Positions 5,630-37,587 of a stretch of DNA of 64,000 bases are shown in pieces. Made by a program: the position numbers and the translations under genes. Source of the DNA: an uncultured Clostridia bacterium (lineage in GTDB: Bacteria; Bacillota; Clostridia; TANB77; CAG-465); assembly GCA_947632635.1 (NCBI GenBank), contig CANRQA010000001.1, positions 44,809 to 108,808 on the forward strand, read 5' to 3'. Position 1 is the stretch's first letter. The number at the start of each line of letters is the position of its first letter. A model generated the notes under the pieces. That model made no database searches. It saw only the letters and a list, made by a program, of their open reading frames with translations, and was not told where the DNA came from.

Positions 5630-5669
5630 AATTATTAAATATATAAAAATTTAAGGAGAGAATAAATAT

Positions 5670-6419
5670 ATGGGATTTGTTTATGGAAAAAATCCAGTTT
5701 TAGAAGTTATAAAATCAAACGACAAAACTATAAATAAAATATATATACAAAGTAAAAACAAGGAACTTATAGAAATAAGAAAACTTGCAAAAGAAAAAAG
5801 AATAGTAGTAGTTGAAGCCGATAAATTAAAACTTGATAAAATGATTACCTTAGAAAACGAAAAATTAAAAAATTCACAAGGTGTTGTTGCAAGTGTTACA
5901 GATTACAAATATTATGAAGTAGATGATATATTAGAATATGCCAAAGAAAAAAATGAGCCTCCATTTATCGTTATATTAGATAAGATAGAAGACCCACACA
6001 ATTTAGGCGCTATAATTCGTACAGCAGAATGTATGGGAGTTCATGGAATTATTATAAAAAATCGCAATGCGTGTCAAGTTACAGATACTGTTGAAAAAGT
6101 TGCAGCAGGTGCTTGTTCATATTTAAGAGTTGCAAGAGTTACAAATATCACAGAAACGATTAAATACTTAAAAGATAAGGGCTTATGGGTATATGGACTT
6201 GATATGGACGGGGAGTCTAATATCTATGATACAAAACTAAATGGCGCAATAGCTTTAGTTATAGGTAATGAGGGAGATGGAATTTCAAGACTTGTTAAAG
6301 AAAATTGTGATGTTATATTAAAAATTCCAATGACTGGTAAAATTAATTCACTTAATGCTTCTGTTAGTAGTGCAATTAGTATTTATGAGGTTATAAGACA
6401 AAAAAATAAAGAGATATAA
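5670..6419 (+). CDS. rlmB: SpoU/TrmH-family RNA 2'-O-methyltransferase, RlmB-like
   Basis: SpoU methylase signatures (LDKIEDPHNLGAIIRTAE, GNEGDGIS, SLNASVSSAI). Confidence 0.75.
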   Translation: MGFVYGKNPVLEVIKSNDKTINKIYIQSKNKELIEIRKLAKEKRIVVVEADKLKLDKMITLENEKLKNSQGVVASVTDYKYYEVDDILEYAKEKNEPPFIVILDKIEDPHNLGAIIRTAECMGVHGIIIKNRNACQVTDTVEKVAAGACSYLRVARVTNITETIKYLKDKGLWVYGLDMDGESNIYDTKLNGAIALVIGNEGDGISRLVKENCDVILKIPMTGKINSLNASVSSAISIYEVIRQKNKEI

Positions 6420-10110: not shown

Positions 10111-10791
10111 TTTTAGACCTTTTTATTAAAAGGAAGAAAATAAAAAAGTAAATTCTATTTTTTTAAATTTGCTTTTTTTGTTTATTTATGTTATAATAAA
10201 ATGGATGTGGCGCAGTATTCTAGTCAAAAAACCATATGCAAAGGTGGGCCTAAAAATCCATCACAGGACATATCGTTGAAACTTTGTGTATTTGCTTTTA
10301 TCGCCCAGATGAGGGCTTTTACATGATGAAAGAAATTAAGGTGCAGTTGCAATGGCATGTAGTGTAGTGCCTTTTTTTCGGGAGGCATCATAGTATAATA
10401 TAATATAATATTGTATGATGAAAACCTAATATTAGAGAGTACTAATATTAGTCGTAGTCTGTCGTGAGTGAAAGTAGCGAATAAGACGTTAAGTATATAT
10501 ATTTTTATTTGGCCAAATAATATATATACTTGTTTTTGAAATTACTATTGCAAAAGCGAATAAGCATATGGCAAGATTTGTTTGGGAAAGCCTCTAGACT
10601 GTTGTTAATCAGATGTATTGGGGATTATAGTGTGGACTAAGTGGTAATCAAGTCACTTTAAAGTTATCTATTTTAAAAGGAAACTGCCACAAGGTAACAA
10701 GTGGTAATAGATAGGGAAAACCTACTTGACCTAAGCCGCAAAATTTACTTAATACATTGCCAACATCTACTATATAAAGGAGTAAATAAAA

Positions 10792-20512: not shown

Positions 20513-20547
20513 CTTTTTGCGTTACAGTTTTGCAGATAAATTTGAAT

Positions 20548-20596
20548 AGTAACTCTTGTTTACGTATGGTTAGTAAATAAGAGTTATTATTTTTTA
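20548..20596 (+). terminator. rho-independent terminator
   Basis: AGTAACTCTT...AAGAGTTATT stem followed by ATTTTTTAA. Confidence 0.45.
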
Positions 20597-20714
20597 ATTA
20601 TGTAACGTTGTTATAACAAATAACATATTAAATAATTTTAAAATATTGAATTATAAAAATATATAATATAAAATAAATAGTAAATAAGTCGAAATTTGTA
20701 ATAAAGGGGTATAT

Positions 20715-21083
20715 ATGAAAATTAAGATAAAATTGTTAAAGATTATGTCAAAAATAGAAAACTTTTTAGGAAATTGGCCACTTTTTTTATTTATTTTTGC
20801 GATATTTTTAGGAATTACAGCAAGTATATTAAATGAAAAAATTATGAAAATGAACGAATTTACAAGAGATGATATCATTTATATGATAAGTGAAGTAGAA
20901 AGAGAATATGGTAATGGGGAAAAATTTATTCTTTTAGATACTGATATTAATATTATAGAAAAAAATGTGGGATATGATTATGATTTGCATCATGCAGAAA
21001 AAGAATATATAGGTTTAAACTGTGCTTTAATGGGTTATTTTGAAAATCATGAGGACAAGCGGATATTATGTGAATTTTTGTAG
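20715..21083 (+). CDS. hypothetical protein with one TM helix
   Basis: 122-aa ORF, weak RBS; no family recognised. Confidence 0.35.
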   Translation: MKIKIKLLKIMSKIENFLGNWPLFLFIFAIFLGITASILNEKIMKMNEFTRDDIIYMISEVEREYGNGEKFILLDTDINIIEKNVGYDYDLHHAEKEYIGLNCALMGYFENHEDKRILCEFL

Positions 21084-21187
21084 ATATGTTGCCGATTGCC
21101 CATACAAAGAAGGGAATAATGTTATAATAATGAATTATGTAGATGATGATTTTGATATAACACGTTTTTTAGAGGGAGGTGGATGAT

Positions 21188-21379
21188 ATGGTATTATTAA
21201 TTTGTTCAATCGTTATGATAATTTGTGGTCTAGCATTTCTAATTATACCAAAAGATAAATTAGTAAATGAAAGTAAACTAAAACCGGGACAGACTGTAGA
21301 AAGTGCAGCAAAAAACTTTAGAATATATGGTATTGTTTTTATAGTTGCTGGAATTATGTTTTTAATTTTTAATATGTAA
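21188..21379 (+). CDS. small 63-aa two-TM membrane protein
   Basis: GGGAGG RBS 9 nt upstream of ATG 21188 (the track starts at a GTG inside the RBS). Confidence 0.45.
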   Translation: MVLLICSIVMIICGLAFLIIPKDKLVNESKLKPGQTVESAAKNFRIYGIVFIVAGIMFLIFNM

Positions 21380-21519
21380 AGTTATATATAATATGTTAGA
21401 TTAGAAAGTCTATTTTATCTTATGGGCTTTCTTTTTTGTGGTTAAAAAATTTTAGATAGAAATGCTAAAATTTTTAAAAACTATTGACTTTTGTTAATAA
21501 AATAAGTTACAATGAATAT

Positions 21520-21712
21520 AATAATATAGATACTTTAATGTATCTTGTCCAAATCAAATGTTAGCCGCAACCCTGTTTTGCGGGGTATAAATTCACAGGT
21601 GTACAAATGTTACTCGGAGCCCTACTTCCGACAAATAAATGCGTAGGTGGACAAATGTTAATAAAAGTTAAAAGTAAGAAAGTCTATTTTATCTTATAGA
21701 CTTTCTTTTATT
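21520..21712 (+). ncRNA. candidate small RNA (~190 nt) carrying three ACAAATGTTA motifs spaced ~48 nt apart, each followed by a GC-rich hairpin
   Basis: TTGACT-N17-TACAAT promoter at 21485-21513; GC-rich hairpins (CCGCAA..TTGCGG, TCGGAG..TTCCGA) in an AT-rich genome; perfect terminator AGAAAGTCTA..TAGACTTTCT+T-run at 21677-21712; no ORF. Confidence 0.35.
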
Positions 21713-21889
21713 TGCATATTTTTTATACTATTTTTACAGTTTTACTTGAAGAAATAACCTATTTGTAGTATAATATCCATAATAATAAAAGGGGTAATTG
21801 TAGTAATAATTTGTGGGTATATTTAGATTTAGAAATATCTAGAAATTATTATTACAACCTTTTATTTATATACTAAAGGAGGAAAATTT

Positions 21890-24001
21890 ATGTATAAAAA
21901 ATTTGAAATGGAATATGCAGGACGTCCACTTGTTATAGAAACAGGAAAAATGGCAGGTCTTGCAAATGGCTCATGTCTAGTTAGGTATGGTGAAACAGCT
22001 GTACTTGTAAATGTAACAATGTCAAAAGAGCCAAAAGACGGTATAGACTTTTTACCACTTTCAGTTGATTATGAAGAAAGGTTATATTCAGTTGGAAAAA
22101 TACCTGGAGGATATATTAAAAGAGAAGGGAAGCCTTCTAATAAAGCAATACTTGTGTCACGTGTTATAGATAGACCTATAAGACCACTATTTCCAAAAGA
22201 TTATAGAAATGATACATCAATAAATGCGTTAGTACTTGCAGTAGAGCCAGATGTATTACCTGAAGTACCAGCTTCAATTGGAGCTTCAATTGCTTTAAAT
22301 ATATCTGATATACCTTTTGATGCTTTAGTTGGCTCTATAAAAGTTGGAATAGTAGATGATGAAATCATCTTAAACCCTAACTTAGAACAAAGAGAAAAAT
22401 CAACATTAGATTTAAGTGTATCTGCAACACCAGACAAAATATGTATGATAGAAGCAGGTGCAAAAGAAGTACCAGATGAAAAAATGTTAGAAGCAATTAA
22501 AGTAGCACATACTGAAATAAAGAAATTATGTGACTTTATAAAAGAAATAAGAAATGAAGTAGGAAAGAAAAAAGCAGAATATAAATCATTTGCAGTTCCT
22601 GAAGATTTAGTAGAATTTGTAGATAAATTAGCACATGATAAAATGAAAGAAGCAGTTATTGCAAAAGATAAAACAATAAGAGATGACGCTGTAGCTGCAG
22701 TAGATGAATTTGTAAAAGAAAAATACATAGAAGAATATGGACAAGAAAAATACGAAGAAAATAAATCAATGATTTCAGAAGCATTATATAAAGCAGAGAA
22801 AAAAGCAGTTAGAAATTATATTTTAGAAGAATCAAAAAGAGTTGACGGTAGAGGACTTGATGAAATAAGACCATTAAGTGCTGAAGTAGGTCTTTTTGAA
22901 AGAGTACATGGTAGTGCATTATTTACACGTGGACAAACTCAAGTATTATCAATGGTAACTTTAGGCTCTATATCAGATGAACAAGAATTAGATGGACTTG
23001 ATGAAGAAGTATCAAAAAGATATATACATCATTATAACTTTCCACCATATAGTGTAGGAGAGGCAAGAGCTTCACGTGGACCTGGACGTAGAGAAATAGG
23101 ACATGGTGCACTTGCAGAAAGAGCATTAGAGCCAGTAATACCATCACAAGAAGAATTCCCATACACAATTAGAGTAGTATCTGAGGTATTAAGTTCAAAT
23201 GGTTCAACTTCACAAGGTAGTGTTTGTGGCTCTACACTTGCATTAATGGATGCTGGTGTTCCAATAAAAGCTCCAGTTGCAGGTATATCAACAGGACTAT
23301 TTACAAAAGATGGTGATACATCTAACTATATAATGGTAACAGATATACAAGGAATTGAAGATTTCTTTGGAGATATGGATTTCAAAGTTGCAGGAACTAA
23401 AAAAGGAATAACAGCAATTCAAGTTGACATTAAAATTGATGGGCTTACATATGAAATAATAGAAGAAGCCTTTGCAAGAACAAATAAAGCAAGAAAATAT
23501 ATACTTGATGAAGTAATGTTAAAAGCAATAGATAAGCCAAGAGAAAAAATATCAAAATATGCACCAAAAATAGAAACACTAAAAATTAATCCTGATAGAA
23601 TTAGAGATGTAATAGGTAGTGGTGGAAAGACTATAAACAAAATAATTGAAGAAACTGGTGTAAAAATTGATATAGAAGATGATGGAACAGTATTTGTAGC
23701 AGGTATTGACCCTCAAAAAATGGATAAGGCAATAGAAATGATAGAAAACCTAACTAAAGATGTTGAATTAAATGCAGTATATATGGGTAAAGTAACAAAA
23801 ATACTACAATTTGGAGCATTAGTTGAAATATTACCTGGAAAAGAAGGACTTTTACATATTTCACAAATATCTACAAAAAGAATTAAAAAAGTAGAAGATG
23901 TATTAAATGTAGGAGATGACATATTAGTAAAAGTAACTGAAATAGGAAAAGAAGATGGCAAATTTAGTTTAACTGCAAAAGGTTTAATGGAAGAAGTATA
24001 G
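21890..24001 (+). CDS. pnp: polynucleotide phosphorylase
   Basis: two RNase PH domains, FTRGQTQ, KH and S1 domains at the C-terminus; RBS AAAGGAGG. Confidence 0.95.
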   Translation: MYKKFEMEYAGRPLVIETGKMAGLANGSCLVRYGETAVLVNVTMSKEPKDGIDFLPLSVDYEERLYSVGKIPGGYIKREGKPSNKAILVSRVIDRPIRPLFPKDYRNDTSINALVLAVEPDVLPEVPASIGASIALNISDIPFDALVGSIKVGIVDDEIILNPNLEQREKSTLDLSVSATPDKICMIEAGAKEVPDEKMLEAIKVAHTEIKKLCDFIKEIRNEVGKKKAEYKSFAVPEDLVEFVDKLAHDKMKEAVIAKDKTIRDDAVAAVDEFVKEKYIEEYGQEKYEENKSMISEALYKAEKKAVRNYILEESKRVDGRGLDEIRPLSAEVGLFERVHGSALFTRGQTQVLSMVTLGSISDEQELDGLDEEVSKRYIHHYNFPPYSVGEARASRGPGRREIGHGALAERALEPVIPSQEEFPYTIRVVSEVLSSNGSTSQGSVCGSTLALMDAGVPIKAPVAGISTGLFTKDGDTSNYIMVTDIQGIEDFFGDMDFKVAGTKKGITAIQVDIKIDGLTYEIIEEAFARTNKARKYILDEVMLKAIDKPREKISKYAPKIETLKINPDRIRDVIGSGGKTINKIIEETGVKIDIEDDGTVFVAGIDPQKMDKAIEMIENLTKDVELNAVYMGKVTKILQFGALVEILPGKEGLLHISQISTKRIKKVEDVLNVGDDILVKVTEIGKEDGKFSLTAKGLMEEV

Positions 24002-33932: not shown

Positions 33933-34009
33933 GGCGGCATAGCTTAGTTGGCTAGAGCGTACGGTTCATACCCGTGAGGTCATTGGTTCAACTCCAATTG
34001 CCGCTACCA
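33933..34009 (+). tRNA. elongator tRNA-Met (anticodon CAT), CCA encoded
   Basis: cloverleaf with acceptor GGCGGCA/TGCCGCT, anticodon loop TTCATAC; G1-base-paired acceptor end and near-identity of D-arm and anticodon arm to Bacillus elongator tRNA-Met argue against initiator or tRNA-Ile2. Confidence 0.9.

Positions 34010-37511: not shown

Positions 37512-37587
<76 letters not shown>

What the first reader, a model, noticed from the sequence alone, without database searches (positions are those of the whole stretch)
21404..21712. Promoter-to-terminator element with three phased ACAAATGTTA motifs upstream of pnp, flanked by duplicated terminator hairpins
Two near-identical ~35-nt terminator hairpins (21404-21438 and 21677-21712; AGAAAGTCTATTTTATCTTAT(GGG/AGA)CTTTCTTTT) bracket about 240 bp. 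That segment contains a TTGACT-N17-TACAAT promoter and then about 150 nt with GC-rich hairpins (CCGCAA/TTGCGG; TCGGAG/TTCCGA). It has three copies of ACAAATGTTA at 21555, 21604 and 21652, spaced 48-49 nt apart, plus a degenerate ACAAATAAAT. There is no ORF. This looks like a discrete sRNA gene or an array of protein-binding sites, and the duplicated terminator suggests insertion or duplication. pnp here is not preceded by rpsO.
Basis: seen in the sequence. Interest (0 to 1): 0.55.

Follow-up and report, generated by a model that had tools for sequence, protein, structure and literature searches.

The report
Orphan type III antitoxin RNA gene
The element is a small RNA gene made of two pseudoknot repeats, of the kind that normally neutralises an adjacent RNA-cutting toxin (CptN), but here it sits alone without its toxin as a 274-bp insertion upstream of pnp; it is a stray member of a known toxin-antitoxin family, not a new kind of regulator.

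Summary
Window 21468-21667 is a cptI cassette, the RNA antitoxin of a CptIN type III toxin-antitoxin system. It has a sigma-70-type promoter, a 5' hairpin, two 48-49-nt H-type pseudoknot repeats and a 14-nt partial third repeat.

A profile built only from toxin-linked arrays hits this block at E 3e-61. A DNA pattern taken from the repeats found 95 loci, 94 of them confirmed as family members, almost all in uncultured gut Clostridia MAGs. In about half of the arrays, the repeats are followed by a terminator and a ~155-aa gene. That gene matches NCBIfam 'CptIN family toxin' (E 8e-50) and the CptN structure 4RMO (E 3e-18).

Covariation supports both pseudoknot stems. The long loop carries the AUAUAAAUG-type motif of E. 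rectale CptI.

The window has no cptN. The family terminator and toxin are replaced by a second copy of the local terminator. Another assembly of the same species has the empty site, exactly 274 bp shorter. About a third of arrays in the family are likewise toxin-less.

Verdict: a solitary member of a known RNA class. It is more likely a relic than a selected trans-acting antitoxin, but this is unresolved.

The parts
21403..21435 (+). T1: the host intrinsic terminator of the 63-aa gene, and the left copy of the 33-bp direct repeat (its T-run continues to about 21440).
   Evidence: Repeat family D1 and terminator scan. The same species' empty-site allele L237 has a single such terminator.
21436..21676 (+). 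241 bp of inserted DNA lying between the two terminator copies. The insert plus one terminator copy equals the 274-bp indel.
   Evidence: Alignment of the window with L233-L239. L237 is exactly 274 bp shorter.
21468..21667 (+). Block homologous to the cptI cassettes of complete cptIN loci, running from the promoter through the partial third repeat.
   Evidence: nhmmer with a profile of 36 toxin-linked arrays gives E 3.2e-61 and 201.7 bits, the only hit in the window. blastn shows 94% identity to L217 and L179. Alignment.
21484..21513 (+). Sigma-70-type promoter TTGACT-18 nt-TACAAT. Family members and the strain alleles L236 and L238 have TATAAT.
21528..21545 (+). 5' hairpin AGATAC-TTTAAT-GTATCT, conserved at the start of promoter-bearing arrays. 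A role as a 5'-end stabiliser is inferred.
   Evidence: Fold. Conserved in homologous loci.
21556..21604 (+). Repeat A, 49 nt, an H-type pseudoknot. S1 is 21565-21570 paired with 21578-21583. S2 is 21572-21575 plus 21577, paired with 21595-21599. L1 is C21571. The long loop is 21584-21594 (GGUAUAAAUUC).
   Evidence: nhmmer, covariation, 11 of 11 pairs formed.
21605..21652 (+). Repeat B, 48 nt, an H-type pseudoknot. S1 is 21614-21619 paired with 21626-21631. S2 is 21621-21625 paired with 21643-21647. L1 is C21620. The long loop is 21632-21642 (CAAAUAAAUGC).
21653..21666 (+). Partial third repeat AAATGTTAATAAAA. It carries only the 5'-tail sequence. Its role in supplying the 3' processing junction for repeat B is inferred. 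It is the last segment shared with the family.
   Evidence: Alignment with complete loci. Homology ends at 21666/21667.
21677..21709 (+). T2: the right copy of the 33-bp host-terminator repeat. It has a perfect 12-bp stem (21676-21707) followed by TTTTATTT and stands where the family's own terminator and cptN would be.
   Evidence: Absent from all family loci.

Best explanation
The element is a solitary ('orphan') cptI gene. CptI is the RNA antitoxin of a CptIN type III toxin-antitoxin system.

In complete loci of this family, the steps are as follows:
1. A constitutive promoter drives a precursor consisting of a 5' hairpin, repeat A, repeat B and a partial third repeat.
2. A leaky terminator follows, and then the gene for the endoribonuclease toxin CptN.
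3. CptN cuts the precursor in the A-rich junctions (ACA/AAUGUUA). This step is inferred by analogy.
4. Each 48-49-nt H-type pseudoknot uses its single-stranded tails to bind CptN into a closed, inactive RNA-protein ring. This is also inferred, from E. rectale CptIN (PDB 4RMO).

In this window only the antitoxin half is present. About 200 bp of cassette is embedded in 241 bp of foreign DNA between two copies of the host terminator, and the second copy now ends the transcript. No cptN lies within 64 kb.

The RNA's molecular capability, binding CptN, is therefore assigned with high confidence. Its present role is not settled. I estimate roughly 55% that it is a harmless leftover or stray of a cptIN module, 35% that it neutralises a cognate CptN supplied in trans (from elsewhere in the genome or from incoming elements), and the rest other.

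Shown here: homology to toxin-linked arrays, the identity of the toxin in sister loci, pseudoknot covariation, absence of the toxin in the window, and the indel polymorphism. Inferred: transcription, processing site, toxin binding and present role.
For: 1. Family membership by sequence. A pattern taken from the repeats found 95 genome loci, almost all in uncultured gut Clostridia. Later profile searches confirmed 94 of these as family members. A profile built only from 36 toxin-linked arrays hits window 21468-21667 at E 3.2e-61. The closest loci, L217 and L179, are 94% identical and are complete cptIN loci.

2. The partner gene in sister loci is CptN. NCBIfam NF047359 'CptIN family toxin' matches at E 7.7e-50 with 168.6 bits against a cut-off of 90. 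phmmer against PDB 4rmo_A 'CptN Toxin' gives E 3.2e-18. Of 101 arrays, 47 have a full cptN and 7 more have a cptN cut by the end of the fetched locus.

3. Layout matches the published cptIN family. That family has repeats of 40-48 nt in 1.9-3.4 copies, then a terminator, then the toxin (PMC3401426, Table 2). Here there are 48- and 49-nt repeats, two full copies plus a 14-nt partial one.

4. Structure. On 55 distinct units, 97.4% of cells are paired and 7 of 11 pairs show double compensatory changes. None of 500 shuffles reached this, and slid controls gave 27-50% paired. The topology matches the published CptI_Er pseudoknot: tail, S1, a 1-nt L1, S2, and a long A-rich loop containing AUAUAAAUG (PMC4627078).

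5. Insertion. Three assemblies of the same species are identical to the window across the element. One assembly (L237) has a single terminator and is 274 bp shorter.

6. Two sister species (L001, L125) carry a complete cptIN in the same island between the TSCPD gene and pnp.
Against: - No cptN is in the window; the best of 50 CptN queries by tblastn reached only E 0.05. The defining partner is therefore missing, and the rest of the genome could not be searched.
- The family terminator is replaced.
- In the window lineage the -10 box is TACAAT, whereas the family and strains L236 and L238 have TATAAT.
- Between strains, the insert is no better conserved (209/217) than its flanks (1927/1972).
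- One strain, L238, has a pair-breaking change.
- There are no expression, processing or binding data; the organism is an uncultured MAG.
- CptI antitoxins are highly toxin-specific (PMC4627078), so trans-protection would need a closely matching CptN.
Confidence: 0.88

Rival explanations
1. A base-pairing regulatory sRNA in the RsaE/LhrC style. Its C-rich hairpin loops (CCCU) or its three CAAAUGUUA motifs would pair with mRNAs, independently of any toxin.
For: It has a stand-alone promoter and terminator. CCCU sits in both hairpin loops and three identical 9-mers lie in unpaired stretches. No toxin is nearby.
Against: The CCCU loops pair within the molecule with the AGG segments, and the neighbouring pairs covary. 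The same RNA at 94% identity is the upstream partner of cptN in complete loci. The element is present or absent within one species.
Confidence: 0.05
2. Tandem pseudoknot riboswitches or translational operators that hide a Shine-Dalgarno sequence (AGGUG) in front of short ORFs (30 and 14 aa), or a leader-peptide attenuator.
For: Each repeat is a compact H-type pseudoknot with an A-rich loop, as in preQ1-I or SAM-II aptamers. AGGTG-N5-ATG lies at both junctions, and the 30-aa ORF ends inside the terminator (read by eye).
Against: No Rfam family matches, even at E up to 10. Compensatory stem changes alter the codons of the putative ORF. In homologues the sequence after AATAAAA differs completely, so the ORF is not conserved. 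The downstream gene in the family is a toxin with its own ribosome-binding site after a terminator.
Confidence: 0.03
3. Part of an rpsO-less pnp leader: a cis-regulatory element controlling PNPase expression.
For: It lies 180 bp upstream of pnp on the same strand.
Against: pnp has its own promoter and a 28-pair leader hairpin. These are conserved in five relatives and in the empty-site allele, all without the element at that position. A strong terminator separates the element from pnp.
Confidence: 0.02
4. A DNA-level feature: a MITE-like mobile repeat, or phased binding sites for a DNA-binding protein.
For: Direct repeats flank the insert and the motif recurs every 48-49 bp.
Against: Only two terminator copies and one cassette occur in 64 kb. 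The terminator is absent from all family loci. Variation between units is compensatory in two interleaved helices, which points to selection on RNA structure rather than on a duplex-DNA site.
Confidence: 0.02

Closest known systems
CptI antitoxin of the CptIN type III toxin-antitoxin system, Eubacterium rectale (PDB 4RMO; Rao et al. 2015, PMC4627078)
   Same: Both are tandem repeats behind one promoter. The unit is an H-type pseudoknot with single-stranded 5' and 3' tails, a 1-nt L1, and a long A-rich loop (Er AUAUAAAUG; here GGUAUAAAUUC and CAAAUAAAUGC, with AAUAUAAAUGC as the family consensus). The junction sequences are similar (Er GA/AAGUUUA, here CA/AAUGUUA). The sister-locus toxin is a CptN homologue.
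   Different: The unit is 48-49 nt rather than 45 nt. Stems and tails differ in sequence, so there is no detectable primary homology to the Er repeat. The two repeats of one array are not identical, and they are conserved as distinct A and B types. In the window no toxin follows, and the terminator comes from the host.
ToxI of ToxIN, Pectobacterium atrosepticum (the original type III system)
   Same: The locus logic is the same: promoter, tandem pseudoknot repeats, terminator, endoribonuclease toxin. The toxin processes its own inhibitor (PMC3401426, PMC4627078).
   Different: ToxI has 36-nt repeats in 5.5 copies, a triplex-containing pseudoknot and a heterohexameric complex. It belongs to a different toxin family.
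Pseudo-ToxI of phage phiTE, an antitoxin mimic carried without a toxin (reviewed in PMC5086642, section 6.1)
   Same: It is an antitoxin-type repeat array that exists apart from a toxin gene and can act in trans on a toxin encoded elsewhere.
   Different: It is phage-borne and selected as an escape from abortive infection. The window's copy is chromosomal, in a non-phage context, and the family pattern has no exact match in viral contigs. No trans activity has been shown here.
tenpIN loci with non-identical antitoxin repeats (PMC12283969)
   Same: The repeats within one array differ from each other.
   Different: It is a different toxin family. The paper states that cptIN repeats are 'usually nearly identical', whereas here the A and B repeats differ by compensatory stem changes.

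Membership tests
CptI, the antitoxin RNA of cptIN type III TA systems | Tandem direct repeats of about 40-48 nt, in 1.9-3.4 copies (PMC3401426, Table 2). | tested here: met
   The repeats are 49 and 48 nt, with two full copies plus a 14-nt partial one. At 49 nt, one repeat is 1 nt over the published range.
CptI, the antitoxin RNA of cptIN type III TA systems | A CptN-family toxin gene immediately downstream of the repeats and terminator. | tested here: not met
   tblastn with 50 CptN homologues found nothing in the window (best E 0.05); pnp follows instead. The feature is met in sister loci: 47 full toxin genes plus 7 cut by the locus end, out of 101 arrays, with NF047359 at E 7.7e-50 and 4rmo_A at E 3.2e-18.
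CptI, the antitoxin RNA of cptIN type III TA systems | Sequence homology of the array to arrays that are linked to a CptN gene. | tested here: met
   A profile of 36 toxin-linked arrays, which excludes the window, hits 21468-21667 at E 3.2e-61. Identity to L217 and L179 is 94%.
CptI, the antitoxin RNA of cptIN type III TA systems | An H-type pseudoknot with a 1-nt L1 and a long A-rich loop that forms an A-minor twist. | tested here: met
   S1 and S2 are supported by covariation: 97.4% of cells paired, 7 of 11 pairs with double changes, and 0 of 500 shuffles reaching this. L1 is an invariant C, and ATAAAT in the loop is invariant by construction of the search pattern. The tertiary A-minor twist itself cannot be tested here.
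CptI, the antitoxin RNA of cptIN type III TA systems | Own promoter upstream and a Rho-independent terminator after the repeats. | tested here: met
   The promoter and T2 were found by consensus scan. However, T2 is a copy of the host terminator and not the family's terminator.
CptI, the antitoxin RNA of cptIN type III TA systems | Processing by the cognate toxin at the repeat junctions, and neutralisation of that toxin. | not testable with these tools
   This needs kill/rescue and cleavage-mapping experiments.
Any Rfam family, including riboswitch pseudoknots and pnp or S15 leaders | A covariance-model match. | tested here: not met
   There is no hit at gathering score in the window region and none at E up to 10 in 21300-21950 other than noise.
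MITE-like or repeated mobile element | Multiple dispersed copies of the terminator-flanked unit. | tested here: not met
   There are two terminator copies and one cassette in the 64 kb. The terminator is absent from the 95 related loci, and the JGI metagenome scan returned only an unrelated hit.
pnp 5' leader | Conserved together with pnp in related genomes. | tested here: not met
   It is absent at this position in L001-L003, L124, L125 and the same-species allele L237, all of which keep the pnp promoter and leader hairpin.

The most novel reading that the evidence does not exclude
Solitary CptI arrays are not just debris. They would be kept by selection as trans-acting immunity against CptN toxins, either buffering a chromosomal cptIN or disarming incoming cptIN-bearing elements ('anti-addiction').

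Support in this clade:
- About a third of arrays lack a toxin.
- One set sits in the 3' UTR of a conserved 66-aa gene. It is much better conserved than the flanking coding DNA and still shows compensatory changes.
- Some of these arrays add a third, heterologous E. rectale-type CptI unit, which would give one transcript more than one specificity.
- Orphan arrays co-occur with complete loci in the same genome (L163, L165/L192, L168/L199).

The window's intact, separately terminated copy would be one such immunity gene.
Probability: 0.3. Interest if true: 0.6.

Novelty: new member of a known kind. Interest (0 to 1): 0.4.

Why it matters
- It explains an unannotated, strikingly regular intergenic element with a known mechanism. 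It also removes any suggestion of a new pnp regulator.
- Type III antitoxin RNAs of the CptI kind gave no Rfam match here, so such arrays probably go unannotated. The roughly 100 arrays collected here, together with a covariation-supported pseudoknot, would be enough to build a model.
- Three observations extend what the papers I read report for cptIN: many arrays have lost their toxin; decay stages are visible in sister loci; and the two repeats of an array are conserved as non-identical types. The question they raise about gut Clostridia is testable: are solitary antitoxin RNAs relics, or immunity genes?

Tried and rejected
Searches that gave nothing useful:
- Rfam at gathering score and at permissive E-values gave nothing in the region.
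- The first collection scan (CAAATGTTA, gap, CAAATGTTA in viral contigs) returned only unrelated coding repeats, mostly from one common phage gene.
- The junction pattern in viral contigs gave 11 hits, none matching the family profiles. The family pattern in viral contigs gave no hits.
- The JGI metagenome scan for the terminator gave one unrelated coding hit.
- Exact look-ups of the window's PNPase and of the 100%-identical P0001 failed, so the rest of the source genome could not be reached.
- Pfam, PADLOC and NCBIfam gave nothing significant for the neighbouring 122-aa, 63-aa and 75-aa ORFs. Pfam and PADLOC also failed to recognise the sister-locus toxin; only PDB phmmer and NCBIfam did.
- A literature search for orphan type III antitoxins gave nothing specific.

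A correction to my own work:
- An exact-pattern search of the fetched loci led me to think at first that all close relatives lack the element. Profile search later showed that L001 and L125 hold a complete cptIN in the same island.

Ideas considered and dropped:
- A riboswitch or Shine-Dalgarno-sequestering pseudoknot, a small-ORF or type I toxin, a CRISPR-like mini-array, and an S15-type operator. All were dropped once the toxin-linked homologues were found.
- Whether the 10-nt filler GTTAAAAGTA before T2 is a remnant of the cptN 3' end (L217 ends ..CTAAAGTAA). It is too short to decide.
- The direction of the 274-bp indel, insertion versus precise deletion between the repeats. It cannot be settled, because T1 in L236 and L238 has the same variable bases as the single terminator of L237.

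Full report
**Observation.** Two near-identical terminator hairpins lie at 21403-21440 and 21677-21714; they are 89% identical over 38 nt, and no other copy exists in the 64 kb, where chance predicts none. Between them lie a TTGACT-18 nt-TACAAT promoter, a short 5' hairpin, two GC-rich hairpins, and the word CAAATGTTA at 21555, 21604 and 21652. Two details need correcting: the promoter spacer is 18 nt, not 17, and the first motif copy reads TCAAATGTTA. No Rfam family matches, even at permissive thresholds.

**Anatomy.** The motif marks the start of a 48-49-nt tandem unit. Each full unit has four parts:
- a conserved single-stranded head, AAAUGUUA;
- a 6-bp stem, S1;
- one C, followed by five loop bases that can pair with a downstream (A/G)(C/U)AGG segment, forming S2;
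- between S1 and S2, an 11-nt A-rich loop containing AUAAAU.

Units A and B differ at several stem positions, and every difference keeps the pair. That pattern pointed to a structured RNA, an H-type pseudoknot, rather than a DNA site or a coding sequence.

**Relatives.** A pattern made only of the unpaired conserved pieces (AAATGTTA-N7-CCCT-N10-13-ATAAAT-N4-AGG) found 95 loci in one-genome-per-species GTDB contigs. Later profile searches confirmed 94 of these as family members, and nearly all come from uncultured gut Clostridia MAGs.

The commonest layout is: promoter, 5' hairpin, unit A, unit B, CAAATGTTAATAAAA, a terminator (ATCTACC...GGTAGATTTTTT), a ribosome-binding site, and an ORF of about 155 aa beginning MKVENGKFYFIKD. 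That protein is a CptN toxin. It matches NCBIfam NF047359 'type III toxin-antitoxin system CptIN family toxin' at E 7.7e-50 with 168.6 bits, against a cut-off of 90 and over the full profile length. It also matches the CptN chain of PDB 4RMO at E 3.2e-18. Pfam and PADLOC did not recognise it.

[quoted passage not shown] The published cptIN family has repeats of 40-48 nt in 1.9-3.4 copies (PMC3401426).

**Structure.** I aligned 55 distinct units. On that alignment, the proposed pseudoknot is paired in 97.4% of cells, and 7 of 11 pairs show compensatory double changes. None of 500 column shuffles reached this, and sliding the partners by 1-3 columns dropped pairing to 27-50%.

Three S2 pairs were fixed by the search pattern and so carry no information. 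The two free S2 pairs switch between A-U/G-C and U-A/C-G. Arrays not caught by the pattern show further compensation at the 'fixed' pairs, for example UCUAC/GUAGA.

The published CptI of E. rectale is a 45-nt H-type pseudoknot. It has single-stranded tails, a one-base L1, and a 9-nt loop AUAUAAAUG that forms an A-minor twist essential for antitoxicity (PMC4627078; sequence recovered from the primer table). The units here have the same order of parts and similar lengths. Their loop motif is the same kind (family consensus AAUAUAAAUGC), and the junction is similar (Er GA/AAGUUUA, here CA/AAUGUUA).

**The window copy is an orphan.** A profile built only from 36 toxin-linked arrays hits window 21468-21667 at E 3.2e-61, and nothing else in the window. 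Identity to the complete loci L217 and L179 is 94%. Homology stops exactly after CAAATGTTAATAAAA. In place of the family terminator and cptN there is GTTAAAAGTA followed by the second copy of the local terminator, which occurs in none of the family loci. tblastn with 50 CptN homologues finds nothing in the 64 kb.

Both units keep 11 of 11 pairs. Changes specific to the window are a -10 box of TACAAT instead of TATAAT, one loop base in unit A, one tail position, and a G-C to G-U change in unit B.

**Insertion.** The 63-aa gene just upstream occurs on eight contigs from other assemblies of the same species.
- Three assemblies (L233-L235) match the window at all but one of their aligned bases and are identical across the element, so the junctions are not an assembly artefact.
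- One assembly (L237) has a single terminator followed directly by the pnp promoter, and is exactly 274 bp shorter.
- A strain about 2.3% diverged (L236) carries the insert at 96.3% identity, so the insert has been carried for some time.

The element is therefore 241 bp of foreign DNA plus a 33-bp duplication of the host terminator, and it is polymorphic in the species. Whether L237 is ancestral or a precise deletion between the repeats cannot be decided. The mechanism that produced a 33-bp duplication is unknown.

Among sister species, L002, L003 and L124 have no array near pnp. L001 and L125 carry a complete cptIN in the same island between the TSCPD gene and pnp, with a toxin 69% identical to that of L217. 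That island therefore hosts these modules repeatedly.

**Orphans in the family.** Of 101 arrays:
- 47 have a full cptN;
- 7 have a cptN cut by the end of the fetched locus;
- 7 have a frameshifted or partly deleted cptN;
- 33, including the window, have none within 600 nt or more;
- 7 cannot be judged.

Orphan units are slightly more degenerate, at about 10.3 of 11 pairs against 10.8. This gradient fits the expected decay path of a toxin-antitoxin module: the toxin can be lost, whereas the antitoxin cannot be lost while the toxin remains. One orphan set, however, lies in the 3' UTR of a conserved 66-aa gene and is much better conserved than the flanking coding DNA. Some genomes also hold both orphan and complete loci. 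A selected trans-acting role for some orphans is therefore open.

**Mechanism and rivals.** The best-supported reading is a CptI antitoxin RNA gene that has lost, or never had, its cis toxin at this site. Processing and toxin binding are inferred from the E. rectale and Pectobacterium systems and were not tested.

I put its present role at roughly 55% relic and 35% trans-acting antitoxin or anti-addiction gene. The evidence pulls both ways:
- For a relic: a weakened -10 box, no excess conservation between strains, and a presence/absence polymorphism.
- For a retained function: both pseudoknots are intact, and the new terminator is strong.

The rival identities each conflict with the toxin-linked homologues, the intramolecular covariation, or the empty-site allele. 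These rivals are a base-pairing sRNA, a riboswitch or small-ORF operator, a pnp leader, and a DNA-level repeat.

**Novelty.** The RNA belongs to a known class, and the toxins of its sister loci are recognised by an NCBI equivalog model. Three points go beyond the papers I read (PMC3401426, PMC4627078, PMC5086642, PMC12283969):
- the solitary state of this and many other arrays;
- the conserved non-identity of repeats A and B, whereas cptIN repeats are described as nearly identical;
- composite arrays that include an E. rectale-type unit.

My literature search was limited, so these points may have been noted elsewhere.

Noticed in passing
window 10191-10779 (+): A full-length OLE RNA (Rfam RF01071, 333 bits). 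Two tRNA genes lie at 33933-34006 (+) and 37515-37587 (-).
   Followed up: no
window 21746-21863 (+): The pnp gene has its own promoter (TTGAAG-17-TATAAT, 21746-21774) and a long 5'-UTR hairpin of 28 predicted pairs (about 21788-21863). Both are conserved in five related genomes, with one G-C to A-U compensatory pair. There is no Rfam match. This is probably a pnp autoregulatory leader. No rpsO lies anywhere in the window.
   Followed up: partly
window 20513-21889; L001 1174-2500; L002, L003, L124, L125: The interval between the TSCPD-domain gene and pnp is a variable island with different small genes in each relative. In L001 and L125 it holds a complete cptIN locus: an array at L001 1202-1389 and a 159-aa CptN at 1448-1927.
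   Followed up: partly
L137 5556-5652, L189 797-893, L139, L144, L151, L194, L205, L216, L220 and others: A set of toxin-less arrays with no promoter of their own starts 2-7 nt after the stop codon of a conserved 66-aa gene (MAVTVRELEKIRREGLKALK...), which itself lies downstream of a PIN-like gene. They are followed by a spoIIID-like gene or by a large serine recombinase gene. The array is much better conserved than the flanking coding DNA and still shows compensatory changes.
   Followed up: partly
L137 about 5653-5725; also L194, L200, L169 and L203: In some of those arrays, units A and B are followed by a third unit that resembles the published E. rectale CptI repeat (ACCACTGACCGATATGT.GTATATAAATGGT.GG...GAAGTTTA). 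One transcript would then combine heterologous CptI types.
   Followed up: no
L185 2441-3187, L210 1449-2197, L126 1-595, L197 3620-4195: Some loci have a second array directly after the toxin gene (array, cptN, array). In L197, an array of this family follows an E. rectale-like CptN gene.
   Followed up: no
L183, minus strand, 382-aa ORF: A CptN homologue is fused in frame to a C-terminal extension of about 225 aa of unknown nature.
   Followed up: no
all arrays of the family: Every array has exactly two full units. These are conserved as two different types: A has S2 CCURU/AYAGG, and B has S2 CCUAC/GUAGG, with different loops and tails. Published cptIN repeats are described as nearly identical. 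This might mean that the 2:2 CptN-RNA ring contains one of each type.
   Followed up: partly
L133, L160, L193, L202, L204, L149, L156: These are intact arrays followed by frameshifted, truncated or mostly deleted cptN genes. They look like intermediate stages between complete loci and orphan arrays.
   Followed up: partly
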